Assembly (NCBI GenBank): GCA_016207415.1
Contig: JACQPT010000061.1
Span: 1 to 48,010, forward strand
Length of the DNA: 48,010 bases
Direction of reading: 5' to 3'
DNA from: Ignavibacteriales bacterium
GTDB taxonomy: Bacteria > Bacteroidota > Ignavibacteria > UBA10030
A program made the position numbers and the translations under genes. Within the stretch, counting starts at the first letter, position 1; each line of letters starts with the position of its first letter. Shown here piece by piece: positions 14,737 through 27,854 of the stretch. The notes beneath the pieces are model-generated. The model worked only from the letters and a program-made list of their open reading frames with translations. It was not told the origin of the DNA and ran no database searches.

Positions 14737-15159
14737 TTAACGGAAAATCTGGTACAACATCAGATAGATCACCACTCCGGTGACTGAAACATAGAGCCAC
14801 ACGGGGTACGTCCATCTTGCAATTCTTCGGTGAACTTCATAGTTGCCTTTCAGTCCGCGACGAAGTGTGATAATAGCGAGAGGAACAATGAGTGTGGCAA
14901 GGACCGTGTGGGACAGCAGGATCGCGAAATACACTGGCCTTACCCAACCCTCACCCTGAAATGGCTGCGAGCCATGGTGGTAGTGATAGATCAGGTAGGA
15001 TGTGAGGAACAAGCCTGAGAGGATAAACACTGTGATCATACTCTTTCGATGCGCGGGGATGTTTCCTTTTTTCATGAAGTGATGACCGATGACGAGAAAA
15101 GCTGCGCTGCAGGTGTTGAGGAAGGCGTTGAGGAGTGGTAAATCAGAAACGGAGATCAT
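14737..15159 (-). CDS. DUF420 family membrane protein (oxidase-associated)
   Basis: LNAFLN, H-x-K-x-M, FLTSYLIYH, SHTVLA, HRRIARWTYPVWLYVSVTG. Confidence 0.88.
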   Translation of the reverse strand: MISVSDLPLLNAFLNTCSAAFLVIGHHFMKKGNIPAHRKSMITVFILSGLFLTSYLIYHYHHGSQPFQGEGWVRPVYFAILLSHTVLATLIVPLAIITLRRGLKGNYEVHRRIARWTYPVWLYVSVTGVVIYLMLYQIFR

Positions 15160-16046
15160 TACACCTTATCGACTACCATCACGAGCATCAACGTGGGCAA
15201 GTACAGCAAGGACGAAAAGAAAATCCGACGCGAGTATCTATTGGCCAAGGCTTGATGATGCTGATTCAAAGTTGAGAGACGGAAAAGGATTGCATACCAA
15301 AGCAGTCCGAAGCTGAGCAAAAGAGCGGTGACCAGATACAAGCGGCCAGCCAAACCTATCCAGGAAACGCAAAGGCTGACCGCAAGCAATAGAGATGACG
15401 CCACGAGAATGTGAAGGCTGGTTCTCCTCCCCCATTCGTCGATAACGGGAAGCATCCTAAATCCCGCCCGCGCATAGTCTTTCTTATACATCCAGGCAAG
15501 GGACAGAAAGTGCGGAATCTGCCATACGAACAGAATGCCGAAAAGAACCCACGCGTCAACGGTGATTCCATTTCGTGCCGCCGCCCAGCCGACAAAGGTT
15601 GGTAGAGATCCCGGTATAGCGCCAACGAGGGTGTTCCACCACACAACCCGCTTCAGAGGCGTATAGAGAACCAGGTAGGTCACCAACGTCAACGCCGCAA
15701 AGAACGCAGTAAGCAAATTATTGAACGCGGCCAGCACAACAAGGCCTGCGATAGCGATCGAGTTTCCAAAAATCAAAGCCGCCAATGGAGAGATTCTTCC
15801 CGCAGGGAGAGGCCTGCGTTCAGTCCTTTTCATGAGGGCGTCGTATTTACGCTCGAAATACTCGTTCAGTGCTCCCGCCCCACCACCGACGAGAAGCGTT
15901 CCAAAAGCAGCCGAAGAAAGCCGGGTCGTGTCCACGCCGTCCGTGGAAGCAAGATAGAAAGCGCACACTGAGGTGAGAGTGGAGAGTCCAGTAAGCTCTG
16001 GTTTTATTAAATCTATATAACTTCTTATCTGAATGTAGCTTATCAT
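15159..16046 (-). CDS. ctaB: Heme o synthase (protoheme IX farnesyltransferase)
   Basis: DALMKRTERRPLPAG, YTPLKR, GAIPG, WQIPHF, DYARAG. Confidence 0.95.
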   Translation of the reverse strand: MISYIQIRSYIDLIKPELTGLSTLTSVCAFYLASTDGVDTTRLSSAAFGTLLVGGGAGALNEYFERKYDALMKRTERRPLPAGRISPLAALIFGNSIAIAGLVVLAAFNNLLTAFFAALTLVTYLVLYTPLKRVVWWNTLVGAIPGSLPTFVGWAAARNGITVDAWVLFGILFVWQIPHFLSLAWMYKKDYARAGFRMLPVIDEWGRRTSLHILVASSLLLAVSLCVSWIGLAGRLYLVTALLLSFGLLWYAILFRLSTLNQHHQALANRYSRRIFFSSLLYLPTLMLVMVVDKV

Positions 16047-16070
16047 GACTTCATAATGTCAATTATAGAA

Positions 16071-17096
16071 CTAAACTGTAGATTCTGCTGCGTCTGCGCT
16101 CAGCTCACGCTCCCTACGAGGATACCTTCCAGATCTCCTAACGATAAATACCGCCTGGACTGACACCATCAAAAGCAATGCTCCCAGAGACTGATGAGCC
16201 GTAGCAATTATCTCTGATTTCCTTGTCAAAACAATATATGCTCCCAAAACAAGCTGAACCGAAAGGCCGCCGAGAAGAAGAAAACTGAAACGCGTATAAA
16301 GAGTATCCAGTTTCCGAAGCGCCCAGAGCTTCAGTGATGTCACAATCAAAAAACACGTCACCACAAGAGCCCAGTAGCGATGGATGACATGCAGCGAAAC
16401 CTGCGAGGCGGTTATCGGCCCATCCGCATGCAGACGGATGTCTGTACGGATGAGTTGTTCGTTGTACCGAGCGATGTCTTCCGGGGATACGGAGGGAATA
16501 AGTTGTCCGTACGCGAGCGGGAAATCCGGAACGGCCAGCCCTGAGTGTGTGTGCCTCATAACGGCCCCAAGAATCAATTGGACCAGAACCACTCCCACCG
16601 TTCCAACGAAAAATGCCGAGGACGGCACGCTTGCCTCTTTTGCCTGTATCACCGAAGCTTCTCCATACCACCACCGTGATGTGAAGAGTGCGAGAGCGGA
16701 AACTGTGCAAAAAAATATCTGCGCCAATGTGGCATGGGTCGCGGACACCTCGGGCGGGAGCATCATCTTAACCGTTAATCCGCCCAGCAGTCCCTGAATA
16801 ATCACTCCAACAAGCGCAAGGACCGCAAGCTTGCGGACCCAGGCGCGTTTCTCAACACGCAGAAACCAAACCGTCAGGAAAACCGTCAAGAGGCCGACAA
16901 AGGATGCTATCATCCTGTGTCCATGCTCGTAAAAGATCCCTCCGACCATCGGCGGCATGAGCTTTCCGTACGACAAAGGCCAATCGGGAACCGCGAGGCC
17001 TGACCCCGTGCTCGTGACCATGCCTCCTGCAATAAGTAACAGGAATGTGCAGCATGCCGTGAACACTGTATATCGATGGAGTGACTTGTTATACAT
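16071..17096 (-). CDS. ctaA: Heme A synthase (COX15/CtaA)
   Basis: GGMVTSTGSGLAVPDWP, EHGHR, QGLLGG, conserved His in helices (ATH, IHR, TAHQ). Start placed at ATG 17096. Confidence 0.9.
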   Translation of the reverse strand: MYNKSLHRYTVFTACCTFLLLIAGGMVTSTGSGLAVPDWPLSYGKLMPPMVGGIFYEHGHRMIASFVGLLTVFLTVWFLRVEKRAWVRKLAVLALVGVIIQGLLGGLTVKMMLPPEVSATHATLAQIFFCTVSALALFTSRWWYGEASVIQAKEASVPSSAFFVGTVGVVLVQLILGAVMRHTHSGLAVPDFPLAYGQLIPSVSPEDIARYNEQLIRTDIRLHADGPITASQVSLHVIHRYWALVVTCFLIVTSLKLWALRKLDTLYTRFSFLLLGGLSVQLVLGAYIVLTRKSEIIATAHQSLGALLLMVSVQAVFIVRRSGRYPRRERELSADAAESTV

Positions 17097-17107
17097 AGTA
17101 TGAGAGT

Positions 17108-17145
17108 AAAAAAAGCGATGCCTTCCGTCGAGAGGAAGGCATCGC
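17108..17145 (-). terminator. Intrinsic terminator between coxB and ctaA
   Basis: Perfect 12-bp stem GCGATGCCTTCC (17115-17126) / GGAAGGCATCGC (17134-17145), 7-nt loop, followed by U7 on the minus strand (A7 at 17108-17114). Confidence 0.8.
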
Positions 17146-17169
17146 GCCGTCAAACTCACGCCATAAGGC

Positions 17170-18309
17170 TTATGGTTGCAGGTACGAAGCTTCCATCTTG
17201 AGCCAGGCGTCAAATTCTTCCGCGGACTCGACAATCATCGTCCCCCGCATACGGTAGTGGCCCAACCCACAAAGCTGCGCACAGGCAATTTCTGTCGGTG
17301 AAGCGAGCTCCACCATTACTAGGGTAAAGCCGTTTTCGAAGAGCGTAGGCACAACCGCGTCGCTGATCATGTCTCCCTTCCTTGCAATGACGGAACCATC
17401 TTTGGCAGTGTAGTCCTGACCGGCCACCTTTTCGAATGTCATTGCCACCGGCACCGCGACAAGTTTTATCGGATTGAATTCAGCGCCGCTTTCTGTCACG
17501 GCCTGAACGAGTTGCTCCTTGACAAAGGGAAGTACCCTCGTTCCTTTCGGAATGACGACCGATCCATCCTTCTGATTTACGATATCGTTGAGCGTTACAA
17601 AATCCAGATAGTTGAGCAAATCGTCGCGCTGGAAATCGAATTCAACTTCTTTTCCTATTTTGTACGTATACCTGAGCATTTCCCTGATTTCAGCCGTCGT
17701 TTTCGTAGGCACAAACCACACGGGGAAAACATCGCCAGGGATGGCATCTTGTTTCACTCGAAAAAACGGCAGGCTAAAACTGTGTATGACATCCTTGCTG
17801 CTTAGCCGGACGATAACAGGTTTGTTGACGGGCAGGTGGAACTGGTTAATGGTCGTGATGTCGTCCTTTGCGCTGGCATCGGAACGATCCAGTCCGAGCG
17901 GGTTCTCTGCGGACACGAGGGAAATATCCGTTCGGCCGAAAACCCCATCAGCACCGGGATAGTGGACGTTCCAGTTAAACTGTTCGCCCACCACTCGCAC
18001 GATCAATGCTTCCTTTTCCGAAGGGAAGGCGTTCACGCGTTTGGCCCACAACGGGAAAGCAAGGCCAATCAGGACCACGATCTCAAAAATGGCCACGCCC
18101 CCTTCCAGATAGTTCGACGCATGGCTTCTCAATCCCAAGTAATCAGCCTTAGGATTGCGCGAGCTCCTAAAACGCATTATGGTGAAAAGCAAGAATGTCC
18201 CCCACCCTACAAACAGAATCAACATAGCCCAATGCATCACGCTCGTCATGTTGTCGATTTCAGGCCCATGAGCCGACGCCACCACCGGAAAACTGAGGAA
18301 GTCAAACAT
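17170..18309 (-). CDS. coxB: Cytochrome c oxidase subunit II (CuA), with a large internal insertion
   Basis: Two N-terminal TM helices, EQFNW, SKDVIHSF, KQDAIPG and CuA motif CAQLCGLGHYRM. Confidence 0.93.
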   Translation of the reverse strand: MFDFLSFPVVASAHGPEIDNMTSVMHWAMLILFVGWGTFLLFTIMRFRSSRNPKADYLGLRSHASNYLEGGVAIFEIVVLIGLAFPLWAKRVNAFPSEKEALIVRVVGEQFNWNVHYPGADGVFGRTDISLVSAENPLGLDRSDASAKDDITTINQFHLPVNKPVIVRLSSKDVIHSFSLPFFRVKQDAIPGDVFPVWFVPTKTTAEIREMLRYTYKIGKEVEFDFQRDDLLNYLDFVTLNDIVNQKDGSVVIPKGTRVLPFVKEQLVQAVTESGAEFNPIKLVAVPVAMTFEKVAGQDYTAKDGSVIARKGDMISDAVVPTLFENGFTLVMVELASPTEIACAQLCGLGHYRMRGTMIVESAEEFDAWLKMEASYLQP

Positions 18310-18326
18310 GGATGAACGATCTCCTT

Positions 18327-18578
18327 TTAATTCAGACTTGGATAATCAAATGTTCCCTCAACGGTCATCTTCATTCGCTTTCTGAGGTAGACGAAAAAGG
18401 CGCCAAAAAGCGAAAGCAGTCCGCCGGTGATTCCCAGCAGAACGAGAACGGCCATATTCACGCTGTCGTTGGTTTTGCTGGCCTCGCCGGCTCCAAAGCA
18501 GACGGGACAACTCATTACCGCATCGGTGAAAGCAATCAGTGCAACCAGCGAAAAGCCAACCAACGCGAGTTTCTTCAT
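18327..18578 (-). CDS. Small exported/membrane protein with a CxxC motif (oxidase-associated)
   Basis: Strong RBS (GAGGGGAG), signal-peptide-like N-terminus, SCPVCFG, one C-terminal TM helix; in-operon position. Confidence 0.7.
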   Translation of the reverse strand: MKKLALVGFSLVALIAFTDAVMSCPVCFGAGEASKTNDSVNMAVLVLLGITGGLLSLFGAFFVYLRKRMKMTVEGTFDYPSLN

Positions 18579-18593
18579 TGTTCTCCCCTCCTC

Positions 18594-18800
18594 TCACATA
18601 AAACTGATGTGTTTGAATTTTCGAAGAAAACGAACCCCATACACAATGAGCCCAATCCCCACCAACGCCGACGCGATTCCTCCGAGCATGTTTTCTCCAG
18701 ACTGTGATGCCCCGGTCCCAAGAAACAACCAAACACTAAAGCCAAACGCGCACAAGGTCGAGAGCGAGATAAAGAAAATATGGAAAAACTTGAGCGACAT
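18594..18800 (-). CDS. Small two-TM hypothetical protein
   Basis: MSLKFFHIFFI...; two hydrophobic helices; start overlaps the coxD stop (TAATG). Confidence 0.7.
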   Translation of the reverse strand: MSLKFFHIFFISLSTLCAFGFSVWLFLGTGASQSGENMLGGIASALVGIGLIVYGVRFLRKFKHISFM

Positions 18801-19105
18801 TAAGGCAATGCCACCTTATCGCTGAATGCGCCGACTGGCAAAAACATCAATCCTACAAAAAACACGACGGTCAAAACGAGCACTGCATAAATCAACTTCT
18901 TTTCAGAGATCAAATGCATGAAATAGCTCGCAACAAGCGAGCCTTTGATGACGGCGATGATCAGAGCAACGCTCACTGCCGCGACTGTGGAGAGGTGAAG
19001 CGTTGAGACCGCCACCGTCACAATGGTCAGTGCCAGGAGCACCACGAACACCATGATATATGTCCGAACGTGCTTCTTTATATCTTCTGCATGTGCTTCC
19101 GACAT
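18800..19105 (-). CDS. coxD: Cytochrome c oxidase subunit IV (prokaryotic COX4 family)
   Basis: YIMVFVVLLALT...IAVIKGSLVASYFMHL. Start placed at ATG 19105 with an AGGAGG RBS. Confidence 0.85.
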   Translation of the reverse strand: MSEAHAEDIKKHVRTYIMVFVVLLALTIVTVAVSTLHLSTVAAVSVALIIAVIKGSLVASYFMHLISEKKLIYAVLVLTVVFFVGLMFLPVGAFSDKVALP

Positions 19106-19115
19106 TTGGTCCTCC

Positions 19116-19706
19116 TTACAATAGATACAGGACGGGGAAAAGGAAAATCCACACCAGATCAACAAAGTGCCAGTAAAGCCCGGCAACCTCCACCCTATTC
19201 GTAAACCGCTCCGGCTCGGTCTTCCACATGTAACTTCCCGGTCCCCAGAGGTAGGTATTGAGCACAATTCCACCTATCACATGCAGGCCATGAAGCCCGG
19301 TGAGAGTGAAGTAGATGGCCAAAAACGTGTTGTAGCTGGGATAGTGGCCGATCTCAAACTTGTGTCCATACTCGAATGCCTTAACGACAAGAAATATGAG
19401 GGCACACAGGATCGTCAAGCCCATGTAGAGTTTATATTTTTTGAAATTGCTCATCTTCAACGAAGCCCAAGACATGACCATCGTGACGCTGGAAGAAATC
19501 AGGACCACCGTATTGAGCGTGGCGAGTGGGATATTCAGCTCTTCCCATCCATGGGGCCAGTGGTCCGCCCCCACTCTCAACAAAACGTAAGATGAGAAGA
19601 GTGCGCCGAAGAGCATCACCTCGGAAGCGAGAAACAACCAGACGCCAAGCTTGGCGTTAAAGAGTCCGGTATCTGAACGGAGTTGTACAGTGTAGGGAAT
19701 TTGCAT
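19116..19706 (-). CDS. coxC: Cytochrome c oxidase subunit III (short form)
   Basis: GVWLFLASEVMLFGALF, NTVVLISSS, TGLHGLHV, GLYWHFVDLVW. Confidence 0.95.
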   Translation of the reverse strand: MQIPYTVQLRSDTGLFNAKLGVWLFLASEVMLFGALFSSYVLLRVGADHWPHGWEELNIPLATLNTVVLISSSVTMVMSWASLKMSNFKKYKLYMGLTILCALIFLVVKAFEYGHKFEIGHYPSYNTFLAIYFTLTGLHGLHVIGGIVLNTYLWGPGSYMWKTEPERFTNRVEVAGLYWHFVDLVWIFLFPVLYLL

Positions 19707-21635: not shown

Positions 21636-22325
21636 CTAACCGGCTTTGTAGGAGAAGTTCACCGTTGCTTTTCCCGTCGCATCCACCTTCACTTTCATCG
21701 TCTGGGTCCCGTATTTCTCGTGCCAGGCTTCGACAGTGTATTCACCTGCCGGAAGGTCTTTGATGACAAAAGACCCGTCGTCTCCAGTGACAGAATAAAA
21801 CGGATGACTGAAAACGCCGATGTAAGCACCCATCCAGGAATGCACTTCACATTTCACTTTGAACGGAGCTTCTGGTTTTGGAAAATTCTTTTTCATTGTG
21901 CCGGGTACAGGCTGTCCCTGATTGAATCCCTGATTGACTTTGGGCAGTGCATGCACGTTGTGTAGCGTGTTGTCGCTGTTTTTGACCTGGAGCTCCTGGC
22001 CGGCCATTACACCAAGGACATGTGGCTTATAAATGCAGCCTTTCTGGTCGAAAACAACCGGAGTTTTCGGTGTGTCGAATTTCTTCCCACCAATCCCATC
22101 TTTCACGTAGATGAGGACGTTTTTCAATGTGCCGTTCTTATTGACTACAAGCTCTTCACTTAAAACAGGTGCCTTGTGGGCCATGGCGCAGAATTTGTCG
22201 GCATCCATTCGGAGCCGCGCCGGGGCAGCCGGTTTTCCTTCGAACGAAACTTTCCCTGTGACATCACCCGCAACAACTGGTAGCGAGAGGAAAACGACCA
22301 TCACCGCCAAAACCGCCTTTTTCAT
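21636..22325 (-). CDS. Secreted cupredoxin-like protein with a carboxypeptidase-regulatory-like beta domain
   Basis: Signal peptide, strong AGGAG RBS, FDQKGC, HNVH and CEVHSWM (C-x2-H-x2-M), C-terminal GSFVIKDLPAGEYTVEAWHE. Confidence 0.75.
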   Translation of the reverse strand: MKKAVLAVMVVFLSLPVVAGDVTGKVSFEGKPAAPARLRMDADKFCAMAHKAPVLSEELVVNKNGTLKNVLIYVKDGIGGKKFDTPKTPVVFDQKGCIYKPHVLGVMAGQELQVKNSDNTLHNVHALPKVNQGFNQGQPVPGTMKKNFPKPEAPFKVKCEVHSWMGAYIGVFSHPFYSVTGDDGSFVIKDLPAGEYTVEAWHEKYGTQTMKVKVDATGKATVNFSYKAG

Positions 22326-22406: not shown

Positions 22407-25055
22407 TCATTTGCTTGCAACAGTGCCAGACCTTCTTCCCAAAATCCACACGTATGTGGAAAGAGCCTTTATTTGCTCCTCGTTACTGCCACCCAAGATC
22501 GTAGGATCCGGAGCCTCCTGACCTTCTGTGAAAAACGTAGGCATGCGCGTCCCTTGCTGCAGCTTTGACGGATCTCTTAGCCAATCGATGATCCATTCGG
22601 GTTTCAAGCGTGTATACGCCTTCGCGAGGTCGGGAGCCAGAGACTCCGCCGTCACACCCTCTGTGTTATTGCCCGTCGGATGGCATTTTGCACACTGGTA
22701 CACCTCATAGAGCTTTCTTCCCGGCGCGACGTATTTCTGGTCAACAGGCGTTGCCGCATAGTCACGAAGGACAAAATCCTGCTTTGACATTCCCAGAAAA
22801 TACCTTTGAATCTTGCCTATTTCAATGTCGGTAAGATGAAACGTGGGCATTCTGACATTCACCCAGGGCCGAATCGTCGTTGGATTACTCAGGAACGAGT
22901 ACAGCCACGGCTCCTGGACTTTTGCTCCCTGACTTTCGGGCAGCGGCGGAGGTCCCAGTGCAGCCTCCTCGTACAGTGAGACAGTGTACCCGCCGCGTTC
23001 TTCAAGCTGGTGGCATTGGACGCAATTGTACGTCATCGTCAGCCTGCGGCCTGCTTCAACATCCTGCATCCGCTTGTCGTATGCGCGTTGATAGCTTGGG
23101 AGGGGGACATCCTTCGTCATGCTGATGAGTAACAGTCGGATGAGCCTTATTTCTTCTTCGTTGAAGGTGAAGAGCGGCATTTTCTGAACGATGCGTTCTG
23201 TCTGGTACAGCCGGGGATTCTTGAATTTCCCGAACACCCAGCCTCTCCAGGTGTGCTTTACAGCCACCGTTCCGTCGGCATTCTCTCGATAGTCCAGGGT
23301 ATCATCTTCCGAAAGTTCATGCGTATCTCCAAAGTCCATCTGCTCGACTTTCTTCCGGCCAAAGTCGGAGAGCTCAACACTGACCTTTCCTTCATTCTCC
23401 ATTCCCTTGATCGAATGGCAACCTGCGCAACCGAATTCCCTGATGAGCCTGTCCCCTCTCGCAATTTTCTCAGCGTTGTTCAGATCCAGATTCGCGAGGG
23501 GGAATCTCCTGTCATCTTTAAGCGTCGTGAGATATGCGACGATATGTCTTGCTTCGACATCCGTAAGACGTAGGCTCGGCATGCGCGTTTCAGCGTTATA
23601 GTGGCGGGGGTTTCTCACCCAATCGAATATCCAATCGGGAGAAACCTTGCTGCCCACGCGAGTCAATTCGGGTGCGATATCAAAACTTGTCGCCCGTGCA
23701 TCTCTTACTCTTGTGGCGTTTCCTACGACGTGACAGGCCTGGCACCCGATGGTCTCGAAGAGCTGCTTCCCTTGAGCTGCACTGCCACCGACAAAGGATC
23801 CGCGGGGTCGCTCAAAAGAAAAACTCGATTGTTTGGCAACGCTGACGAGGTAGGCAGTGATCGCCTCCGCCTGGTCATCGCTGAACATGAAATTCGGCAT
23901 GCGCGTGTGCGCATTGTAGTCTTTCGGATTTCTCACCCATCGGAAGATCCAATCTGGGTGTACCTTAGCCGTCAGCGTGTTCAACGGTGGACCGATTTTC
24001 GGGAGGTCGGAAAACCCCTTGATTTCATGACAGCCGTAGCAGCCGGACTCGAATACTATTTGCTTCGCTGCGACGAACGGTTTTGCGTGTTTCAGGACGC
24101 TTTCATTGGTGTGGCAGGAGTTACACGTTGCATACACATCGTTACCACGCAGGATAGGAGTTTCCCAGTAATGGTCGTCCTCACCGTGGGCAAATCCGGC
24201 TGTAAGCGCCGGCCCCTGTCCACGGTGACACGGTGTGCATCCAAATGTCTCCGGATTATGCTTGGCGAGAAGCTCCGGAACCGGATGACTGGTGAACGGT
24301 TGCGGCGCCTCCGACATGAGCTCATCATTCCAGCCGGAGTGACACGTCTGGCAGCGGTCGATCCTCGCCTTAATCTCCTGGAATGGCGTTAATTCAAAAT
24401 CGTTCAACATGACCTGCCGCACTCCGATCGGAGCGTTTCGCATTTTCTCAGCTTTTGACCCATACGCTTCAGCTTCAGCAAACAGGCTTTGCAACTCGAT
24501 TTGAGCCTTCGCGAGAGCATCTTTGTACTTATTGACGACCTCATCCAGACCAGCGATTTTTTTCTCGAGCTCGGTCATTTCAGACAAATGTTTCGCTATT
24601 GCCGCCTCATGTTCGTCAACTTCTCTGCGGAATGGAGCGACATCCCTTCCTTCCAGTTTTGCTTTCTGCAACTGATAGTAAGCTGCATCCGACCGGCTCC
24701 GGGCAAATCGCCATTCTCTCGTCGCCAGGTCTAACCCGCTGCTCAGATGGTCTTTCTCGGACACGGCTTTCACATATTCTTCCGACGCCACCCCCTCCTC
24801 CGCGTTCTTTAGACGTGCCTGTAATTCAACTACTTGAGATGAATCTATTTCTTGCATCGAGAGGAGACGCAAGGAATCGAGTTTTTCGGCTGAAAGCTCG
24901 TGAAAGGTGGTCTGATATTCTTTCCAGGGTCGACGAGTCCTGACTTCATCCCACACAGACCACACTGTTCCCAGGAACAAGATTCCGCTGAAGAGAATGT
25001 AAAAAGCGGCGTAATTCCGGCTCTCTACTGGTGTCTTGGCTCGCTGTTTAAACAT
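22407..25055 (-). CDS. Membrane-anchored multiheme cytochrome c (8 CxxCH)
   Basis: N-terminal TM helix, long coiled coil, then CQTCH, CTPCH, CNSCH, CYGCH, CQACH, CAGCH, CVQCH, CAKCH. Confidence 0.92.
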   Translation of the reverse strand: MFKQRAKTPVESRNYAAFYILFSGILFLGTVWSVWDEVRTRRPWKEYQTTFHELSAEKLDSLRLLSMQEIDSSQVVELQARLKNAEEGVASEEYVKAVSEKDHLSSGLDLATREWRFARSRSDAAYYQLQKAKLEGRDVAPFRREVDEHEAAIAKHLSEMTELEKKIAGLDEVVNKYKDALAKAQIELQSLFAEAEAYGSKAEKMRNAPIGVRQVMLNDFELTPFQEIKARIDRCQTCHSGWNDELMSEAPQPFTSHPVPELLAKHNPETFGCTPCHRGQGPALTAGFAHGEDDHYWETPILRGNDVYATCNSCHTNESVLKHAKPFVAAKQIVFESGCYGCHEIKGFSDLPKIGPPLNTLTAKVHPDWIFRWVRNPKDYNAHTRMPNFMFSDDQAEAITAYLVSVAKQSSFSFERPRGSFVGGSAAQGKQLFETIGCQACHVVGNATRVRDARATSFDIAPELTRVGSKVSPDWIFDWVRNPRHYNAETRMPSLRLTDVEARHIVAYLTTLKDDRRFPLANLDLNNAEKIARGDRLIREFGCAGCHSIKGMENEGKVSVELSDFGRKKVEQMDFGDTHELSEDDTLDYRENADGTVAVKHTWRGWVFGKFKNPRLYQTERIVQKMPLFTFNEEEIRLIRLLLISMTKDVPLPSYQRAYDKRMQDVEAGRRLTMTYNCVQCHQLEERGGYTVSLYEEAALGPPPLPESQGAKVQEPWLYSFLSNPTTIRPWVNVRMPTFHLTDIEIGKIQRYFLGMSKQDFVLRDYAATPVDQKYVAPGRKLYEVYQCAKCHPTGNNTEGVTAESLAPDLAKAYTRLKPEWIIDWLRDPSKLQQGTRMPTFFTEGQEAPDPTILGGSNEEQIKALSTYVWILGRRSGTVASK

Positions 25056-25080
25056 TATACTGACAGGTTCTTCAAGGTTG

Positions 25081-25989
25081 CTAGACGTTAAACCAGGGAG
25101 TGACCCAAACGTATTTCACAGGGTTCATTCCAAGAAATGTGGGTATCAAACGTAGGAGAATCTTCACAAGTAGCCCCATCATCGTCAAAAACAGGAACGA
25201 AACTATCGCGTATCGGACCAGCCCCAGCTTCTTCATGAAGTCTGTATTCCTCTTTCTCAGCCAATACAGGGGTCCAAGCGAGTAGAAGCCAAAGACGCAC
25301 ACCGCGCCAAAAATGAAAGCGGCCGGGTTCAATGAACCGTCCGGCATACGGGTGGCGATATTGAACGGCCACATTTCAGAAAAGTCGACGTTCGTCAAGA
25401 CGGCAACAAAGTGAGGATCCCATTTCTCTCCCGGCATGAAGAAATTCCAGCCCGGACCGCGGAGAAACGTTCCTATAAAAATGAGAAGACACCAGAGAAT
25501 AAGAAAACCAAAAGAAAATACCAGGACTGCGAACTTGCGCTCCTTGAACGTATAATATCCGTTACCCTTCGGGTTGATGTCGATGTATGGAATCGCCATC
25601 AAACCAACGATGATGAGACTCGGCAGCACAACACCGGCAATCCATGGATCGAAGTACACCAGCATTTCCTGCAAACCGAGGAAATACCAGGGGGCTTTCG
25701 AAGGGTTTGGCGTTAGGGCTCTGTTGGCTGGCTCTTCAAGCGGGGCGTCCAGCGTGATCGACCAAATTACCAACACCGCCATTACGGCAATGGTGGCAAG
25801 AAACTCAACGCGCACAAGATACGGCCACACCTGGACTTTGTCGTCCAACGTCGCCTCGACCGGGTATCCCTGCGCATCATTCTTCTTTGCCTTCGTCCAG
25901 GCGAACCAGGTAAAGAAGATGACGGAGAAAAGCAGGAAAACGATCGGAAGATTATCCGGCTTGGTGAGAATCTCGAAGAATTGTTGCAT
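25081..25989 (-). CDS. petD: Cytochrome b subunit IV-like (C-terminal half of split cytochrome b)
   Basis: VWP, DAPLEEPAN, TPNPSKAPWYFLGLQE (PEWY-equivalent region), PYID, RGPGW; directly follows the b6-like gene. Confidence 0.8.
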   Translation of the reverse strand: MQQFFEILTKPDNLPIVFLLFSVIFFTWFAWTKAKKNDAQGYPVEATLDDKVQVWPYLVRVEFLATIAVMAVLVIWSITLDAPLEEPANRALTPNPSKAPWYFLGLQEMLVYFDPWIAGVVLPSLIIVGLMAIPYIDINPKGNGYYTFKERKFAVLVFSFGFLILWCLLIFIGTFLRGPGWNFFMPGEKWDPHFVAVLTNVDFSEMWPFNIATRMPDGSLNPAAFIFGAVCVFGFYSLGPLYWLRKRNTDFMKKLGLVRYAIVSFLFLTMMGLLVKILLRLIPTFLGMNPVKYVWVTPWFNV

Positions 25990-26013
25990 GCAGTGTTTGG
26001 CTGGGGAGCGGTC

Positions 26014-26781
26014 TTATGTTTTCTTTGGCGTTTCCGGACCTGAAATTCCTCCGTCTTTTCGCACACGCCAGAAATGCACAGCCATAAAGATCGCCGCAAT
26101 AATAGGGAGGAAAATGCAATGGCCAACATAAAATCTCAGGAGCGTCGGCGGACCAACTTCGGTGCCGCCAAGAAGGACAAAGCGGACGTCATTGTCCGGC
26201 ATCATGCCCAGCTCGGGTCCAAATGGGCCCTCGTGTCCCAGCAACGGAGTCGCGCGAGCCATGTTCGTCCCAACAGTGACCGCCCAGATTGCAAGCTGGT
26301 CCCACGGCAGAAGGTAACCCGAAAAGCTCAACAGAAGCGTGAGCACGAGAAGGATCACGCCGACGACCCAGTTAAATTGTCTTGGCGGCTTGTACGAACC
26401 CGTGAGGAAAACCCGGAACATGTGAAGCATCACCGTGAGAACCATCGCGTGAGCGGCCCATCGGTGCATGTTGCGAATGAGCGGGCCGAAGGGGACATCA
26501 TTCATCAAATACTTCATGTCCTCGTACGCGTATTGTGCCGTCGGTCGGTAGTAGAACATAAGGATAATGCCGGTAATGGTGAGGACAAGAAAAAGAAGAA
26601 AAGTTATTCCTCCCATGCCCCACGTGTAGCCGATGTTTGTTGCGTGTCGTGGAACGCGAACAGGATGCAAATGGAGGAAAACGTTGTCGACAATCTGAAG
26701 CGCACGATTCCGTTGTGTGTCCTGGTACGAGTGACGGAAGATCGATTTGTAGACTTCAGTTTTCTTGAACGCCTCTAGCAT
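26014..26781 (-). CDS. petB: Cytochrome b6-like (N-terminal half of split cytochrome b)
   Basis: RNMHRWAAH...LHMFRV (H-x13-H), SGYLLPWDQ, FYVGH...VH (H-x14-H, b6-type spacing). Start placed at ATG 26781. Confidence 0.92.
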   Translation of the reverse strand: MLEAFKKTEVYKSIFRHSYQDTQRNRALQIVDNVFLHLHPVRVPRHATNIGYTWGMGGITFLLFLVLTITGIILMFYYRPTAQYAYEDMKYLMNDVPFGPLIRNMHRWAAHAMVLTVMLHMFRVFLTGSYKPPRQFNWVVGVILLVLTLLLSFSGYLLPWDQLAIWAVTVGTNMARATPLLGHEGPFGPELGMMPDNDVRFVLLGGTEVGPPTLLRFYVGHCIFLPIIAAIFMAVHFWRVRKDGGISGPETPKKT

Positions 26782-26789
26782 ACTGTCTC

Positions 26790-27446
26790 CTAACCTTGAA
26801 AGGGCAAGAAGGCGCCGGGTTTGGTCCAATCGCCTTTTTCATAGATGAACTTAATGCTCCGGTCGATTTCAATCTGACCGTCGTCGGTGAAGGTGATGAG
26901 CGCGCGTTCCAGCGGGCGGGGCGCAGGTCCTTCAAAGTTAATGCCCGTCCTGTAGAAACCGCTGCCGTGGCATGGACACTTAAACTTGTTGTCTGACCCC
27001 AGCCACCGAGGCGTGCAACCCAGGTGAGTGCAAATCGAAATGAGTGCGTAAAAGCCCCCTTTTTCCCGGACAATCCAGACTCTTTTCTCTTCTTTGAACT
27101 TCTCGCTTACTTCGCCGACGACAAAATCCGAGGGGAAACCGGCCTTGAATTTTGGCGGCTGTTCAAACAGTACGCGCGGAAACATAAAACGAAGTGCTCC
27201 GATGGTCGACGTGACGATAAAGCCAAAAAACCCCAGCCAGCCGGCGACAGAAAGCACATTCCTTCGGTTCATTCGCCATATTCCGGGGTCTTCCTCGGGA
27301 GGACGATCCTGTTTTGCTTTTCGCGGCAGAGGGACAGGGCTGATCTGCGTTCCGGAAGGCCTAGGCGCCCCTGCCGTGGGTGCGGCGGGTGCTGTAGGCG
27401 TCAGTGCTTGCGGCGCGGCAGCTTCCTTTGCTACCTGGTCAGCCAT
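26790..27446 (-). CDS. petC: Rieske 2Fe-2S subunit
   Basis: CTHLGC and CPCHGS boxes; Tat-like NRRNVL before the TM helix; Pro/Ala-rich N-terminal extension. Confidence 0.94.
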   Translation of the reverse strand: MADQVAKEAAAPQALTPTAPAAPTAGAPRPSGTQISPVPLPRKAKQDRPPEEDPGIWRMNRRNVLSVAGWLGFFGFIVTSTIGALRFMFPRVLFEQPPKFKAGFPSDFVVGEVSEKFKEEKRVWIVREKGGFYALISICTHLGCTPRWLGSDNKFKCPCHGSGFYRTGINFEGPAPRPLERALITFTDDGQIEIDRSIKFIYEKGDWTKPGAFLPFQG

Positions 27447-27527
27447 AGATGGATTCCTTTGTCTTTTGCAAAAAAAGTCGGAATACTTTCCCGGAACGCG
27501 AACGGAAGGCCCGCCATGGTATGCCGG

Positions 27528-27854
27528 TCATGCCGCAGCACTCAACTCTTCCTCCCGCTTGACCATGTCAATGGTTTCCCAGGGGCAATATTTTGCGCAC
27601 AACTTGCACCCGATGCACACCTCTTCATCGACAACAACGACACCGTTCACGCTCACATAACCGTGTTCTTCAGGATTTTCGGGACCCGGAATCTTGTACA
27701 GGCAGTCTACCGGACAGAATTCTATGCACACCTCGCACCCCGTACATCCTTCCGGATGCACAATCGCCACGAGCGGAGATTTCTTTTTTTTCTTTTCAGA
27801 AACAGCAGGGGCAGCTTTCGGCGCGGCGGCAGGCTGGGGAGCCGGGATCGTCAT
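27528..27854 (-). CDS. 2[4Fe-4S] ferredoxin
   Basis: CTGCEVCIEFCP and CIGCKLCAKYCP; no export signal. Confidence 0.9.
   Translation of the reverse strand: MTIPAPQPAAAPKAAPAVSEKKKKKSPLVAIVHPEGCTGCEVCIEFCPVDCLYKIPGPENPEEHGYVSVNGVVVVDEEVCIGCKLCAKYCPWETIDMVKREEELSAAA

What the first reader, a model, noticed from the sequence alone, without database searches (positions are those of the whole stretch)
14737..27854. Single 15-gene operon encoding a complete, non-canonical quinol-to-O2 chain (ferredoxin, Rieske, split cyt b, octaheme, cupredoxin, modified A-family oxidase)
Seen: 15 co-oriented, closely spaced genes behind one near-consensus promoter, in the order fdx, petC, petB, petD, 8-heme cyt c, cupredoxin, coxA, coxC, coxD, two small ORFs, coxB, ctaA, ctaB, DUF420. 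coxB comes after coxA/C rather than first. There is no cyt c1/f, no SCO/SenC and no CtaG/Cox11. Established: split Rieske/cyt b complexes with multiheme c partners occur in planctomycete-type bc complexes, and bc-oxidase supercomplexes are characterised in Actinobacteria. Inference: this is a distinct, probably uncharacterised III-IV supercomplex in which almost every core subunit departs from textbook motifs (see the separate findings).
Basis: partly seen in the sequence, partly recalled or inferred. Interest (0 to 1): 0.8.

Follow-up and report, generated by a model that had tools for sequence, protein, structure and literature searches.

The report
Ignavibacterial quinol-to-oxygen respiratory gene cluster
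This is a conserved gene cluster of uncultured Ignavibacteria that joins an anammox-like Rieske/cytochrome b complex with an eight-haem cytochrome to a blue-copper protein and an unusual haem-copper oxidase, a respiratory chain whose parts are known kinds but whose combination has not been studied.

Summary
Fifteen minus-strand genes (27854 to 14737) lie 81 nt or less apart, in the stated order, behind a TTGACA-17-TATATT element.

The cluster is two separable modules:
1. (Ferredoxin)-Rieske-cytochrome b6-enlarged subunit IV-octahaem cytochrome c. Its Rieske domain is closest to Kuenenia Kustd1480.
2. Cupredoxin-CoxA-CoxC-CoxD-two small conserved membrane proteins-CoxB-CtaA-CtaB-DUF420.

Conservation:
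- Module 1 is followed by module 2 in 46 of 66 related loci.
- In 5 of 5 "unjoined" genomes tested, module 2 lies intact elsewhere.
- In a 301-genome class sample, 58 of 61 octahaem genomes also carry the cupredoxin.
- The promoter element is conserved at the head (25 of 27 ferredoxin loci). No comparable element precedes the cupredoxin in joined loci.

Real departures from textbook motifs:
- Qo motif APWY, and no haem ci cysteine.
- The K-channel lysine is replaced by Ile.
- CuA has Gln for Glu.
- CoxB carries a variable insert.

- A supercomplex is not shown.
- A strong terminator-like hairpin lies before ctaA.
- An SCO homologue exists elsewhere in the genome.
- K-less A-family oxidases are common.

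Verdict: a new variant of known kinds, uncharacterised and moderately interesting.

The parts
27908..27936 (-). Promoter-like element TTGACA-17-TATATT, about 54 nt upstream of the fdx ATG
   Evidence: It matches 11 of 12 positions. The identical element lies upstream of fdx in 25 of 27 fdx-bearing related loci, and TTGACT-17-TATATT in the other 2. The same motif lies directly upstream of Rieske in the clade without fdx. It is the only such motif in the window.
27528..27854 (-). 108-aa 2x[4Fe-4S] ferredoxin with a Lys-rich N-terminus and no TM segment
   Evidence: Pfam Fer4 and Fer4_21. Both CxxCxxCxxxCP motifs are invariant in 27 sequences. No TM-like segment is predicted. It is the only copy found in the genome. 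It aligns to the C-terminal Fe-S domain of the 633-aa oxidoreductase of the paralogous cluster at 27% identity, pairwise E 1e-8.
27479..27493 (-). Weak hairpin followed by a T-run in the fdx-Rieske gap
   Evidence: Consensus scan: 5-bp stem, then ACTTTTTTTG. Possibly an attenuator. Untested.
26790..27446 (-). Rieske [2Fe-2S] subunit with a Pro/Ala-rich N-terminal extension, an RR motif and one TM segment
   Evidence: Pfam Rieske. The CTHLGC and CPCHGS boxes are conserved in 65 sequences. The best solved relative is 9rk3, Kuenenia Kustd1480, at E 9e-45.
26014..26781 (-). Cytochrome b6-like four-helix cytochrome b (ATG at 26781; an alternative TTG at 26829)
   Evidence: Pfam Cytochrome_B, 153 bits. 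NCBIfam ExtP, 283 bits against a cut-off of 290. The best solved relatives are cytochromes b6, E 4e-49. H106/H120 and H221/H236 are invariant. The sequence reads WGMGG where the APWY clade has WCMGG.
25081..25989 (-). Enlarged subunit IV-like protein (302 aa, about 6-7 hydrophobic segments) with Qo motif APWY
   Evidence: Pfam Cytochrom_B_C. NCBIfam ExtQ, 58.9 bits, below the cut-off. A99-P100-W101-Y102 is invariant in 28 sequences. Hydropathy.
22407..25055 (-). Membrane-anchored octahaem cytochrome c (882 aa): N-terminal TM, about 180 aa that read as coiled coil (inferred from the sequence and from the label 'coiled-coil protein SlyX' that JGI gives some homologues; no predictor was run), three c3/c7-like haems, then five class-I-like haem domains
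   Evidence: All 8 CxxCH motifs are invariant, as are M386, M492, M626, M736 and M838. Pfam Cytochrom_C x4 and Cytochrome_C7. No solved relative by sequence. No Pfam family for residues 1-220.
21636..22325 (-). Periplasmic type-1-copper-like cupredoxin, inserted in a transthyretin/CarboxypepD_reg-like beta-sandwich
   Evidence: AF2 pLDDT 86.9. VIA-align: plastocyanin and amicyanin at Z 8.2-8.8 over residues 87-173; carboxypeptidase D domain II at Z 11.1 over 79 aligned residues within model range 21-229, which spans the cupredoxin insert. H122, C159, H162 and M165 are invariant in 55 sequences. It heads the oxidase block when that block stands alone.
19722..21602 (-). CoxA, an A-family haem-copper oxidase subunit I lacking the K-channel lysine
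   Evidence: Pfam COX1, 447 bits. Best solved relative is P. denitrificans aa3, E 2e-118. In that alignment the haem and CuB His ligands, HPEVY, D167 and the RR pair are kept. The Lys equivalent is Ile404: I in 49 and V in 1 of 50 sequences. There is a variable hydrophobic insert at about residues 68-115.
19116..19706 (-). CoxC (short subunit III, 196 aa)
   Evidence: Pfam COX3. NCBIfam aa3_CtaE_Actin and CyoC-like, both below cut-off.
18800..19105 (-). CoxD (subunit IV, 101 aa from the ATG at 19105)
   Evidence: Pfam COX4_pro. TIGR02229 caa3_sub_IV, 47.4 bits, above the cut-off of 37.25.
18594..18800 (-). sORF1: a 68-aa protein with two hydrophobic segments and a conserved N-terminus MSLK.FH..F
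   Evidence: No Pfam or NCBIfam family. It is present at this position in 27 of 28 oxidase-bearing loci with at least 8 kb downstream. Conservation.
18327..18578 (-). sORF2: an 83-aa protein with two hydrophobic segments and a conserved C-P-x-C-x-G motif
   Evidence: No family over cut-off. It is present in 28 of 28 such loci. C24, C27 and G29 are conserved at 95% or more in 46 sequences. The Atlas returns only unnamed clusters.
17170..18309 (-). CoxB (CuA subunit II, 379 aa) with a two-repeat insert inside the cupredoxin domain
   Evidence: Pfam COX2. H176, C343, Q345, C347, H351 and M354 are invariant in 44 sequences. Homologue lengths are 247-467 aa, reflecting the variable insert. AF2 pLDDT 84.6. 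The Foldseek top hits are A-type subunit II.
17115..17145 (-). Strong terminator-like hairpin (12-bp stem, 8 GC) followed by T7, between coxB and ctaA
   Evidence: Found. dG is -23.6 kcal/mol. A comparable hairpin plus T-run occurs in 4 of 40 related coxB-ctaA gaps. Most other gaps are 0-20 nt.
16071..17096 (-). CtaA, haem A synthase (ATG at 17096; an alternative TTG at 17234)
   Evidence: Pfam COX15-CtaA, 137.9 bits.
15159..16046 (-). CtaB, haem O synthase
   Evidence: TIGR01473 cyoE_ctaB, 270 bits, above the cut-off of 210.
14737..15159 (-). DUF420 (CtaM-like oxidase assembly factor)
   Evidence: Pfam DUF420, 149.7 bits. The link of CtaM to DUF420 comes from the title and listing of PMC4958251 and from passages of PMC8239418.

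Best explanation
The block encodes a lineage-typical aerobic respiratory chain of uncultured Ignavibacteria-class bacteria. It is built from two modules that in this clade are fused into one transcription unit.

Module 1 is an APWY/anammox-type Rieske/cytochrome b6 complex. Cytochrome c1/f is replaced by a membrane-anchored octahaem cytochrome c.

Module 2 is a cupredoxin-led A-family aa3-type oxidase. It comprises CoxA, CoxC, CoxD, two small conserved membrane proteins, and CoxB. The enzymes and assembly factor for haem A follow: CtaA, CtaB and CtaM/DUF420.

Inferred electron path: menaquinol is oxidised at the Qo site. One electron goes Rieske -> octahaem c -> cupredoxin -> CuA -> haem a -> haem a3/CuB -> O2. 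The other goes through the two b haems, most simply to a Qi-site quinone (Q cycle).

The ferredoxin gene sits under the same conserved promoter in this clade. Its role is open: a co-expressed carrier, or an n-side partner.

Shown: gene identities, ligand conservation, synteny, co-occurrence and promoter conservation. Inferred: the electron path, the quinone type, co-transcription and any physical association.
For: Identities:
- Gene identities come from Pfam and NCBIfam.
- Redox ligands are conserved: 8 CxxCH plus 5 Met in the octahaem, the Rieske boxes and b-haem histidines, H/C/H/M in the cupredoxin, the CuA ligands, and the CoxA ligands and D-channel residues.

Synteny in 80 loci from species-level genomes:
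- Rieske-b-IV precede the octahaem in 61 of 61 loci with at least 3 kb upstream.
- Cupredoxin plus coxA follow in 46 of 66 loci with at least 1.5 kb downstream.
- The whole oxidase-ctaAB block follows in 28 of 39 loci with at least 8 kb downstream.
- In 5 of 5 unjoined genomes the cupredoxin-to-DUF420 block lies intact elsewhere.

Co-occurrence in a 301-genome class sample:
- octahaem (E <= 1e-70) in 61 genomes
- cupredoxin (E <= 1e-30) in 78
- both in 58
- octahaem only in 3
- cupredoxin only in 20

Transcription signals:
- The promoter element is conserved at the head.
- No comparable element precedes the cupredoxin in joined loci (best 8 of 12 in the window).
- In 4 of 5 unjoined genomes a TTGAA[AT]-17-TAT... 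element (9 or 10 of 12) lies about 110 nt upstream of it.

Context in the same genome:
- A paralogous APWY-type Rieske/b cluster sits next to NosZ. These complexes therefore tend to be encoded beside their terminal reductase.
- The genome holds only one COX1 gene.
Against: - No RNA or protein data exist. No RNA run was listed, so co-transcription is inferred only.
- A strong hairpin plus T7 before ctaA and a weak one after fdx could split the unit.
- The two modules are unjoined in 20 of 66 loci.
- Cupredoxin-headed oxidase operons exist without the octahaem complex, in 20 of 78 genomes. Two were inspected. The pairing is therefore not obligatory for the oxidase.
- The cupredoxin fold score (Z 8.2-8.8) is only just above the range the tool calls common. 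No Pfam copper family was detected.
- Whether the K-less oxidase pumps protons or has normal turnover is unknown.
- The quinone type is assumed from cultured Ignavibacteria (recalled).
- Genomes in the counts are related to each other, so the counts overstate independence.
Confidence: 0.7

Rival explanations
1. One reading: the products form an obligate III-IV supercomplex. Electrons pass from the Rieske centre to CuA within one assembly. The octahaem cytochrome, the CoxB insert and the small proteins act as bridging elements.
For: - Both halves lie in one block behind one conserved promoter.
- There is no c1/f and no monohaem cytochrome c gene in the block.
- 58 of 61 octahaem genomes also carry the cupredoxin.
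- Lineage-specific additions have no assigned role: the octahaem N-terminal 220 aa, the CoxB insert, the CoxA TM1-TM2 insert, and sORF1 and sORF2.
- Precedents exist. Actinobacterial bcc-aa3 structures appear among the solved relatives. SoxMEFGHI uses a blue copper protein (PMC4122944 passages).
Against: - The modules are unjoined in 20 of 66 loci, and that state fills a whole clade of the octahaem tree.
- The cupredoxin has a signal-peptide-like N-terminus and no other hydrophobic segment. It also heads oxidase operons in genomes that lack the octahaem complex. Both fit a diffusible carrier.
- The CoxB insert varies from 0 to about 220 aa, which is unlike a fixed interface.
- No physical evidence of any kind was obtained.
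Confidence: 0.3
2. The bc module is an electron-bifurcating, ferredoxin-reducing complex, as proposed for the anammox relatives. O2 reduction via the high-potential branch pulls the second electron of menaquinol through the b haems to the 2x[4Fe-4S] ferredoxin on the cytoplasmic side, instead of to a Qi quinone.
For: - The Rieske domain's closest solved relative is Kustd1480. That protein has Em +335 mV and belongs to a complex with a cytoplasmic Fe-S/NAD(P) oxidoreductase, for which this mechanism has been proposed (PMC12954380, abstract and passages).
- The same genome has a paralogous cluster with a 633-aa Pyr_redox_2 + Fer4 protein upstream of Rieske. The ferredoxin aligns to its C-terminal dicluster domain.
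- In a 32-row clade, fdx sits between the conserved promoter and Rieske. The fdx homologues encoded elsewhere lack that promoter.
- fdx is 71-88% identical across the clade and is the only copy found in this genome.
- The haem ci cysteine is absent.
Against: - fdx is missing from the locus in 33 of 63 loci where this could be judged.
- In 5 of 5 such genomes a 54-59% identical homologue lies elsewhere. In 3 of 3 of these inspected it lies beside ORFs of about 326 and 468 aa, which in the one locus scanned (L099) are a Pyr_redox_3 gene and atpD, followed by atpC. This is what a general housekeeping ferredoxin would look like.
- Cytochrome b, subunit IV and Rieske show almost no clade-specific differences between fdx-bearing and fdx-less loci, and none in obvious n-side segments.
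- The similarity to the oxidoreductase domain is at the level of generic dicluster ferredoxins.
- Qi-site integrity was not assessed.
Confidence: 0.15
3. The octahaem Rieske/b complex is a general periplasmic electron hub. It would feed several acceptors (oxidase, N2O reductase, others). Its adjacency to the oxidase would be an operon fusion of convenience, not a dedicated chain.
For: - The module stands alone with its own conserved promoter in one clade.
- An eight-haem, membrane-anchored cytochrome could serve several partners.
- The genome also encodes NosZ, cytochrome bd and another blue copper protein.
Against: - The octahaem co-occurs with the cupredoxin-oxidase in 58 of 61 genomes.
- NosZ in this genome has its own adjacent Rieske/b complex.
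- The joined state lacks an internal promoter.
Confidence: 0.15
4. It is an ordinary bc1 plus aa3 locus, and the 'departures' are alignment noise.
For: All subunits hit the standard Pfam families. CoxA is about 45-50% identical to Paracoccus aa3 over the core.
Against: - There is no c1/f gene; an octahaem cytochrome stands in its place.
- APWY replaces PEWY, invariant in 28 sequences.
- The K-channel Lys is Ile in 49 of 50 sequences, in an ungapped stretch.
- Gln replaces Glu in CuA, invariant in 44 sequences.
- NCBIfam equivalog cut-offs are missed by CoxA (587 against 671), CoxB (115 against 148) and PetC (64 against 250).
Confidence: 0.03

Closest known systems
Kuenenia stuttgartiensis Rieske/cytochrome b complexes Kustd1480-1485 and Kuste4569-4574 (anammox; PMC12954380, abstract and passages read)
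   Same: They share a b6-like four-helix cytochrome b plus an enlarged subunit IV, a hexa- or octahaem cytochrome c in place of cytochrome f, and an Fe-S protein encoded with the complex. The Rieske soluble domain here is the closest match to Kustd1480 (9rk3, E 9e-45) and shares its CPCHGSGF box.
   Different: - Here the Fe-S partner is only a 108-aa ferredoxin, with no FAD/NAD(P) domain. That domain is found in the paralogous cluster on contig C77.
- The haem ci cysteine is absent.
- The complex is encoded with an O2 reductase, in an Ignavibacteria-class organism.
- I could not fetch the other Kuenenia subunits, so only the Rieske subunit was compared directly.
APWY clade of cytochrome b (Kao and Hunte 2014, PMC4122944, passages read) and the Geobacter ExtP/ExtQ/ExtS families of NCBIfam
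   Same: Split cytochrome b with Qo motif APWY. Cytochrome b scores 283 bits on ExtP, against a cut-off of 290.
   Different: [quoted passage not shown]
- The clade's WCMGG is WGMGG here.
- ExtQ and ExtS scores are far below their cut-offs.
- The paper's supplementary tables were not read.
Actinobacterial cytochrome bcc-aa3 supercomplex (Mycobacterium, Corynebacterium; properties recalled, structures seen as hits)
   Same: It is a menaquinol-to-O2 chain without cytochrome c1 or soluble cytochrome c. It has a multihaem c subunit, an A-family aa3 oxidase and a short subunit III.
   Different: - That system has a dihaem QcrC against an octahaem here, and an unsplit cytochrome b.
- It has no cupredoxin, and the K-channel Lys is present (recalled).
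- Its genes are not in one operon (recalled).
- NCBIfam actinobacterial models score far below their cut-offs.
- Physical association is shown there and not here.
Archaeal SoxMEFGHI quinol oxidase supercomplex with sulfocyanin (PMC4122944 passages; details recalled)
   Same: One gene cluster combines Rieske, cytochrome b, a blue copper protein as the link, and a CuA-bearing haem-copper oxidase.
   Different: - SoxM is archaeal and has no c-type haems.
- Subunits I and III are fused there (recalled).
- There is no close sequence kinship: SoxB scores 64 bits against a cut-off of 700, and SoxC 106 against 740.
ACIII-caa3 gene clusters of cultured Ignavibacteria (Ignavibacterium album PMC3362086; Melioribacter roseus PMC3534657; passages read)
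   Same: Same class of organisms. A quinol-oxidising complex is encoded next to an A-family oxidase. In M. roseus the order is CoxI, CoxIII, CoxIV, then CoxII.
   Different: ACIII is unrelated to Rieske/b complexes. Those papers report no such Rieske/b complex, and they describe a soluble c551/c552 rather than a cupredoxin.
Paracoccus/Rhodobacter aa3 (type A1 haem-copper oxidase)
   Same: These are the best solved relatives of CoxA (E 2e-118). All metal ligands, HPEVY with the Glu and Tyr, and the D-channel Asp and Asn are kept. The CoxB core fold is also shared.
   Different: - The K-channel Lys is Ile and the Thr is Ser.
- There is a hydrophobic insert between TM1 and TM2.
- The CuA motif is C-A-Q-L-C, with Gln for Glu.
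- CoxB carries a 0 to about 220 aa insert.
- Two extra small proteins are encoded.

Membership tests
Rieske/cytochrome b complexes (bc1/b6f superfamily) | Rieske subunit with CTHxGC and CPCHGS cluster-binding boxes | tested here: met
   CTHLGC and CPCHGS are conserved in 65 sequences. Pfam Rieske.
Rieske/cytochrome b complexes (bc1/b6f superfamily) | Cytochrome b with two His pairs for haems bL and bH | tested here: met
   H106/H120 and H221/H236 are invariant in 28 sequences. Pfam Cytochrome_B, 153 bits.
Rieske/cytochrome b complexes (bc1/b6f superfamily) | Cytochrome c1 or cytochrome f as third redox subunit | tested here: not met
   No c1/f family hit in the block. An octahaem cytochrome c occupies the position. 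A c1 family search of the whole genome was not run.
APWY clade of cytochrome b (Kao and Hunte 2014) | Qo motif APWY on a split cytochrome b | tested here: met
   A99-P100-W101-Y102 of subunit IV is invariant in 28 sequences. No phylogenetic placement against the paper's sequences was done.
APWY clade of cytochrome b (Kao and Hunte 2014) | WCMGG (possible haem ci cysteine) in the N-terminal protein, described in the paper as the form most members carry | tested here: not met
   W54-G55-M56-G57-G58 is invariant in 28 sequences, with Gly in place of Cys.
Anammox-type Rieske/b complexes (Kustd1480-85 type) | b6-like cytochrome b, subunit IV with more than three TM helices, and a multihaem cytochrome c | tested here: met
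   Best solved relatives are cytochromes b6. Subunit IV has about 6-7 hydrophobic segments. The cytochrome c has 8 CxxCH motifs.
Anammox-type Rieske/b complexes (Kustd1480-85 type) | Close kinship of the Rieske subunit | tested here: met
   9rk3 (Kustd1480) at E 9e-45 and 9rk4 (Kuste4569) at E 5e-26, against E 2e-14 for the best b6f Rieske.
Anammox-type Rieske/b complexes (Kustd1480-85 type) | Cytoplasmic NAD(P) oxidoreductase subunit with Fe-S clusters | tested here: not met
   Only a 108-aa dicluster ferredoxin lies in this block. The full 633-aa Pyr_redox_2 + Fer4 protein is in the paralogous cluster on contig C77.
A-family haem-copper oxygen reductases | Haem a and a3/CuB His ligands and the cross-linked Tyr in HPEVY | tested here: met
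   Alignment to P. denitrificans subunit I. E328 and Y330 are kept in relatives.
A-family haem-copper oxygen reductases | D-channel Asp/Asn and the helix VI Glu | tested here: met
   GAPDMAFP, FGNY, KLN and HPEVY align without gaps.
A-family haem-copper oxygen reductases | K-channel lysine (P. denitrificans K354) | tested here: not met
   Ile404 stands at this position: I in 49 and V in 1 of 50 relatives. Among the 150 nearest 50%-cluster representatives, K occurs in 81, another residue in 54, and a gap in 15.
A-family haem-copper oxygen reductases | CuA site in subunit II (H, C-x-E-x-C, H, M) | tested here: met
   H176, C343, C347, H351 and M354 are invariant in 44 sequences, but Gln345 replaces the Glu.
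Type-1 copper cupredoxins (plastocyanin/amicyanin kind) | Cupredoxin fold | tested here: met
   Z 8.2-8.8, rmsd 2.1-2.3 A, 83-87 residues aligned, covering whole plastocyanins and amicyanins. By the tool's own note this is borderline.
Type-1 copper cupredoxins (plastocyanin/amicyanin kind) | His ... Cys-x2-His-x2-Met ligand set | tested here: met
   H122, C159, H162 and M165 are invariant in 55 sequences. Copper binding itself is not testable here.
Type-1 copper cupredoxins (plastocyanin/amicyanin kind) | Match to a Pfam copper-protein family | tested here: inconclusive
   Only CarboxypepD_reg-type families were reported at E <= 0.01.
Respiratory III-IV supercomplex | Stable physical association of the two complexes | not testable with these tools
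   Only gene adjacency and co-occurrence were obtained.
CtaM (DUF420) oxidase assembly factor | DUF420 domain encoded with an aa3-type oxidase | tested here: met
   Pfam DUF420, 149.7 bits against a cut-off of 30.5. Function is inferred from PMC4958251 (listing) and PMC8239418 (passages).

The most novel reading that the evidence does not exclude
The bc module is an aerobic counterpart of the proposed anammox bifurcating Rieske/b complexes. With O2 as the high-potential sink (through the octahaem cytochrome, the cupredoxin and the K-less oxidase), the second electron of menaquinol is driven across the b haems to the co-transcribed 2x[4Fe-4S] ferredoxin. The cell would thus make low-potential reductant directly from quinol during respiration. 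The whole set might work as one assembly.
Probability: 0.12. Interest if true: 0.85.

Novelty: new variant of a known kind. Interest (0 to 1): 0.58.

Why it matters
- Relatives of the octahaem cytochrome were found in 300 species-level genomes. Nearly all the records listed are uncultured Ignavibacteria or Bacteroidota-labelled MAGs from groundwater, soil and reactors.
- The cultured Ignavibacteria, by contrast, were described as using ACIII.
- Public annotation hides the system. The CoxA proteins are often named 'cbb3-type subunit I' and the octahaem protein plain 'c-type cytochrome'.
- If the chain works as inferred, it is a bacterial case of a Rieske/b complex feeding an A-family oxidase through a multihaem cytochrome and a blue copper protein.
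- It would also be a simpler, aerobic setting for testing ideas raised for the anammox complexes: high-potential Rieske centres, enlarged subunit IV and n-side Fe-S partners.
- It offers a natural A-family oxidase without the K-channel lysine for proton-pathway studies.

Tried and rejected
- RNA evidence: no RNA holder was listed for window:15500-25400.
- Complex prediction with cytochrome b + subunit IV + ferredoxin (partner) gave 'no answer', scores 0.01 and 0.00. This is not evidence either way.
- ACIII idea: I expected genomes with the cupredoxin but no octahaem complex to carry ACIII next to the oxidase. In the 2 inspected (L101, L102) the upstream genes are Obg, FecCD, DUF3098 and family-less ORFs. 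The idea is not supported.
- Specificity positions: comparing fdx-bearing and fdx-less loci gave only 3-4 differing positions per subunit, and none informative.
- CoxB insert: no Pfam family and no Atlas look-alike.
- sORF2: the Atlas gives only unnamed 'hypothetical protein' clusters.
- Octahaem cytochrome: no solved relative by sequence.
- The first Foldseek run on the two-domain cupredoxin model gave no match at E <= 0.001. The VIA-align second look resolved the two domains.
- Dibrova et al. 2013 (PMC3839093) is not held.
- CoxA homologue search: the 120 listed hits were all within the same clade, so it said nothing about outside relatives. The representative search did.
- Maximum-likelihood tree: the run did not finish in time. 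The tree used is FastTree with SH-like support only.
- The hypothesis that the terminator-like hairpin before ctaA is a conserved feature was rejected. It is present in only 4 of 40 relatives.

Full report
**What is there**

Fifteen ORFs lie on the minus strand between 27854 and 14737. I chose the starts that remove overlaps: ATG 26781 for cytochrome b, ATG 19105 for coxD and ATG 17096 for ctaA. With these, the intergenic distances are 81, 8, 24, 25, 81, 33, 15, 10, -1, 15, 17, 73, 24 and -1 nt.

The block is bounded by strand switches. bshC (28048-29712, +) diverges from it, and a purine-nucleoside-phosphorylase-family gene (13861-14730, +) converges on it. The rest of the window is housekeeping: nucleoside salvage genes, aroA, pnp, ribF, truB, infB, nusA, rimP and trpEG. 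No mobile-element genes were seen.

Pfam and NCBIfam give, in order:
- a 2x[4Fe-4S] ferredoxin
- a Rieske protein
- a b6-like cytochrome b
- a 302-aa subunit IV-like protein
- an 882-aa cytochrome c
- a 229-aa protein with only CarboxypepD_reg-type hits
- COX1, COX3, COX4_pro
- two small ORFs without a family
- COX2
- CtaA
- CtaB (above the equivalog cut-off)
- DUF420

The window comes from an 89%-complete MAG of 2.79 Mb in 253 contigs. The names on the closest public records are Ignavibacteriales, Ignavibacteria or Bacteroidota MAGs.

**The individual parts**

*Octahaem cytochrome.* It has eight CxxCH motifs, all invariant in 12 homologues of 51-84% identity, as are five Met residues in (R/K)MP contexts. 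My reading, from sequence, is three bis-His c3/c7-like haems followed by five class-I-like His/Met haems. These sit behind one N-terminal TM segment and about 180 residues that look like coiled coil. That part has no Pfam family. No solved structure matches the protein by sequence.

*Cupredoxin.* The claim needed a test. The AF2 model (pLDDT 86.9) shows a cupredoxin domain at residues 87-173. It aligns to plastocyanins and amicyanins at Z 8.2-8.8, rmsd 2.1-2.3 A, over 83-87 residues. This domain is inserted in a transthyretin-like sandwich (Z 11.1 to carboxypeptidase D domain II). H122, C159, H162 and M165 are invariant in 55 sequences, with an amicyanin-like C-x2-H-x2-M loop. The N-terminus looks like a cleavable signal peptide, and there is no other hydrophobic segment.

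*Rieske.* It has canonical cluster boxes. Its soluble domain is by far closest to 9rk3 (E 9e-45) and then 9rk4 (E 5e-26). The best b6f Rieske scores E 2e-14. PMC12954380 identifies 9rk3 as Kuenenia Kustd1480 (Em +335 mV) and 9rk4 as Kuste4569.

*Cytochrome b and subunit IV.* Cytochrome b is closest to cytochromes b6 (E 4e-49) and keeps both His pairs. It reads WGMGG where the APWY clade of Kao and Hunte mostly reads WCMGG. Subunit IV carries the Qo motif APWY, invariant in 28 sequences.

*CoxA.* It aligns with Paracoccus aa3 (E 2e-118). It keeps the haem and copper ligands, HPEVY, and the D-channel Asp and Asn. The K-channel Lys aligns with Ile404 in an ungapped stretch. Among 50 relatives this position is I in 49 and V in 1, and the Thr position is Ser in 50 of 50. 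A poorly conserved stretch with two hydrophobic segments (about residues 68-115) sits between TM1 and TM2.

*CoxB.* It keeps H176, C343, C347, H351 and M354, with Gln345 in place of the usual Glu, all invariant in 44 sequences. Between H176 and C343 lies an insert made of repeats of about 60 aa. It is absent in one relative and up to about 220 aa in others. The modelled core is an A-type subunit II.

*The two small ORFs.* They are conserved in position (27 and 28 of 28 oxidase-bearing loci with at least 8 kb downstream) and in motifs. sORF1 begins MSLK.FH, and sORF2 has C-P-x-C-x-G. They are therefore real genes. I take them to be oxidase subunits or assembly factors, but that is inference only.

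**Conservation, and the two-module structure**

The octahaem alignment found relatives in 300 species-level genomes, and 80 loci were kept. In tblastn with the 15 window proteins, every hit was co-oriented.
- Rieske, cytochrome b and subunit IV precede the octahaem gene in 61 of 61 loci with at least 3 kb upstream.
- The ferredoxin precedes it in 27 of 61.
- Cupredoxin plus coxA follow in 46 of 66 loci with at least 1.5 kb downstream, and in 20 of 66 they do not.
- The whole oxidase-ctaA-ctaB block follows in 28 of 39 loci with at least 8 kb downstream.

In 5 of 5 genomes of the unjoined kind, one COX1 gene exists elsewhere. It lies in an intact block: cupredoxin-coxA-coxC-coxD-sORF1-sORF2-coxB-ctaA-ctaB...DUF420. 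So the cupredoxin belongs to the oxidase module.

A FastTree of 74 octahaem proteins (SH-like support only, midpoint root) shows three clades:
- 18 rows, unjoined and without fdx
- 24 rows, joined and without fdx
- 32 rows with fdx (28 joined, 2 unjoined, 2 undetermined); the window lies here

In a 301-genome sample of the class, the octahaem (E <= 1e-70) occurs in 61 genomes and the cupredoxin (E <= 1e-30) in 78. Both occur in 58, the octahaem alone in 3, the cupredoxin alone in 20 and neither in 220. These genomes are related to each other, so the figures describe a pattern and are not a statistical test. In two cupredoxin-only genomes, a 38-42% identical cupredoxin heads a differently ordered oxidase operon, cupredoxin-coxB-coxA-ctaA-ctaB.

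**One operon?**

The TTGACA-17-TATATT element at 27936..27908 is the best promoter-like site in the region. Several results suggest it is functional:
- It is identical in 25 of 27 fdx-bearing loci, and TTGACT in the other two. It was reached by 0-2 of 100 shuffles in 26 of the 27 loci, and by 7 of 100 in L020, one of the two TTGACT loci.
- It recurs directly upstream of Rieske in the fdx-less, unjoined clade.
- It occurs once in the 48-kb window.
- It is not found upstream of the ferredoxin homologues that lie elsewhere in other genomes.

In joined loci, nothing comparable precedes the cupredoxin. The best match in the window is 8 of 12, and the distribution is 6-10. In 4 of 5 unjoined genomes a TTGAA[AT]-17-TAT... 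element (9 or 10 of 12) lies about 110 nt upstream of it. This fits an operon fusion in which the oxidase module lost its own promoter.

Against a simple single transcript:
- A 12-bp, GC-rich hairpin with T7 lies between coxB and ctaA (dG -23.6). It is seen in only 4 of 40 relatives, most of which have gaps of 0-20 nt.
- A weak hairpin plus T-run lies after fdx.

I read both as possible attenuators that set stoichiometry. No RNA data could be had.

**The ferredoxin**

It is strongly conserved (71-88% identity in its clade), has no TM segment and is the only copy found in this genome. In 5 of 5 genomes whose bc locus lacks it, a 54-59% identical homologue lies elsewhere. In 3 of 3 of these inspected, the homologue is flanked by ORFs of about 326 and 468 aa. 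In the one locus scanned against Pfam (L099) these are a Pyr_redox_3 gene and atpD, followed by atpC. That pattern suits a general ferredoxin that was placed under the bc promoter in one clade.

On the other hand, the relatives of this complex carry cytoplasmic Fe-S partners. The Kuenenia complexes do (PMC12954380). So does a paralogous cluster in this very genome, on contig C77: a 633-aa Pyr_redox_2 + Fer4 protein, Rieske, an unsplit APWY cytochrome b, a 404-aa multihaem cytochrome and NosZ. The ferredoxin aligns with the dicluster end of that 633-aa protein at 27% identity, pairwise E 1e-8. I therefore keep a bifurcating, ferredoxin-reducing reading as a minority hypothesis.

**Genome context of assembly and other oxidases**

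- Only one COX1 gene was found, plus a cytochrome bd.
- An SCO1 homologue exists as a CusF+SCO fusion on contig C155, beside a plastocyanin-like protein with a type IX secretion tail.
- Cox11, Caa3_CtaG and PCuAC were not found in this 89%-complete genome.

**Comparison with what is known**

The cultured Ignavibacteria were described with ACIII next to a caa3 oxidase, and without this Rieske/b complex (PMC3362086 and PMC3534657, passages). M. roseus shares the CoxI-III-IV...II order.

The bc module matches the anammox-type complexes in architecture and in Rieske kinship, and the APWY clade in its Qo motif. Kao and Hunte wrote in 2014 that no APWY complex had been characterised (PMC4122944, passage).

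The use of a blue copper protein between a Rieske centre and an oxidase is the archaeal solution, as in SoxMEFGHI with sulfocyanin (PMC4122944, passages).

Loss of the K-channel is not unique:
- Passages of PMC8239418 describe repeated loss in archaeal family A.
- Among the 150 nearest 50%-identity cluster representatives of CoxA, 81 have Lys, 54 have another residue and 15 are gapped. Every representative with at least 53% identity that covers the site lacks Lys.

Seven literature searches returned no description of this gene combination. Subscription journals and the supplements of PMC4122944 were not seen.

**Verdict**

It goes too far on 'supercomplex' and on how exceptional each departure is. 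I class it as a new variant of known kinds, common in an uncultured lineage and of moderate interest.

Noticed in passing
G000 contig C77 (locus L095, about 8480-16149, minus strand; also L083): A second, paralogous APWY-type Rieske/b cluster lies in the same genome. It holds a 633-aa Pyr_redox_2 + Fer4_20 + Fer4 oxidoreductase, a Rieske protein, an unsplit 441-aa cytochrome b, a 404-aa multihaem cytochrome c and then NosZ (nos_propeller + Cupredoxin_1). It looks like an anammox-like complex dedicated to N2O reduction.
   Followed up: partly
G000 contig C155 (locus L096, 4489-5376 and 1871-2563, minus strand): A CusF_Ec + SCO1/SenC fusion lipoprotein lies near a plastocyanin-family protein with a Por/T9SS sorting tail. 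This is a candidate CuA-loading chaperone encoded away from the oxidase genes.
   Followed up: partly
window 17296-17697 (-), CoxB residues about 205-338; alignment A3: The CuA domain carries an insert built of repeats of about 60 aa with the pattern D-Y..KDG..I..KG......L...G. The copy number varies among relatives: none in L093, one in most, two here and more in L090-L092 and L094. It has no Pfam family and no Atlas look-alike.
   Followed up: partly
window 19722-21602 (-) and its homologues P0123-P0206: NCBI annotation names many of these A-family CoxA proteins 'cbb3-type cytochrome c oxidase subunit I'. One paper calls an Ignavibacteriales MAG oxidase 'b(o/a)3-type' (PMC6828613 passage). 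The solved relatives found here are A-type.
   Followed up: no
L098, L099, L100 (fdx homologues in genomes whose bc locus lacks fdx); window 28048-29712: In 3 of 3 loci inspected, the stand-alone ferredoxin homologue is flanked by ORFs of about 326 and 468 aa. In the one locus scanned (L099) these are a Pyr_redox_3 (YpdA-like) gene and atpD, followed by atpC. In the window the ferredoxin is divergent from bshC. Both neighbours belong to bacillithiol metabolism by name, which may be coincidence.
   Followed up: no
window 21636-22325 (-), model md4de8289c5f5: The transthyretin-like half of the cupredoxin protein also matches chain Y of the Kuenenia hydrazine dehydrogenase complex (6hif_Y): Z 10.3 with 81 residues aligned of an 86-residue chain.
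   Followed up: no
window 26790-27446 (-), Rieske residues 1-55; L026 7390-8241: The Rieske protein has a Pro/Ala-rich, low-complexity N-terminal extension before the RR motif. It is longer (283 aa in total) in the fdx-less clade.
   Followed up: no
L071 12571-20000: Downstream of the stand-alone bc module, this low-GC locus has almost no ORF of 100 aa or more for about 7 kb. The cause was not examined.
   Followed up: no
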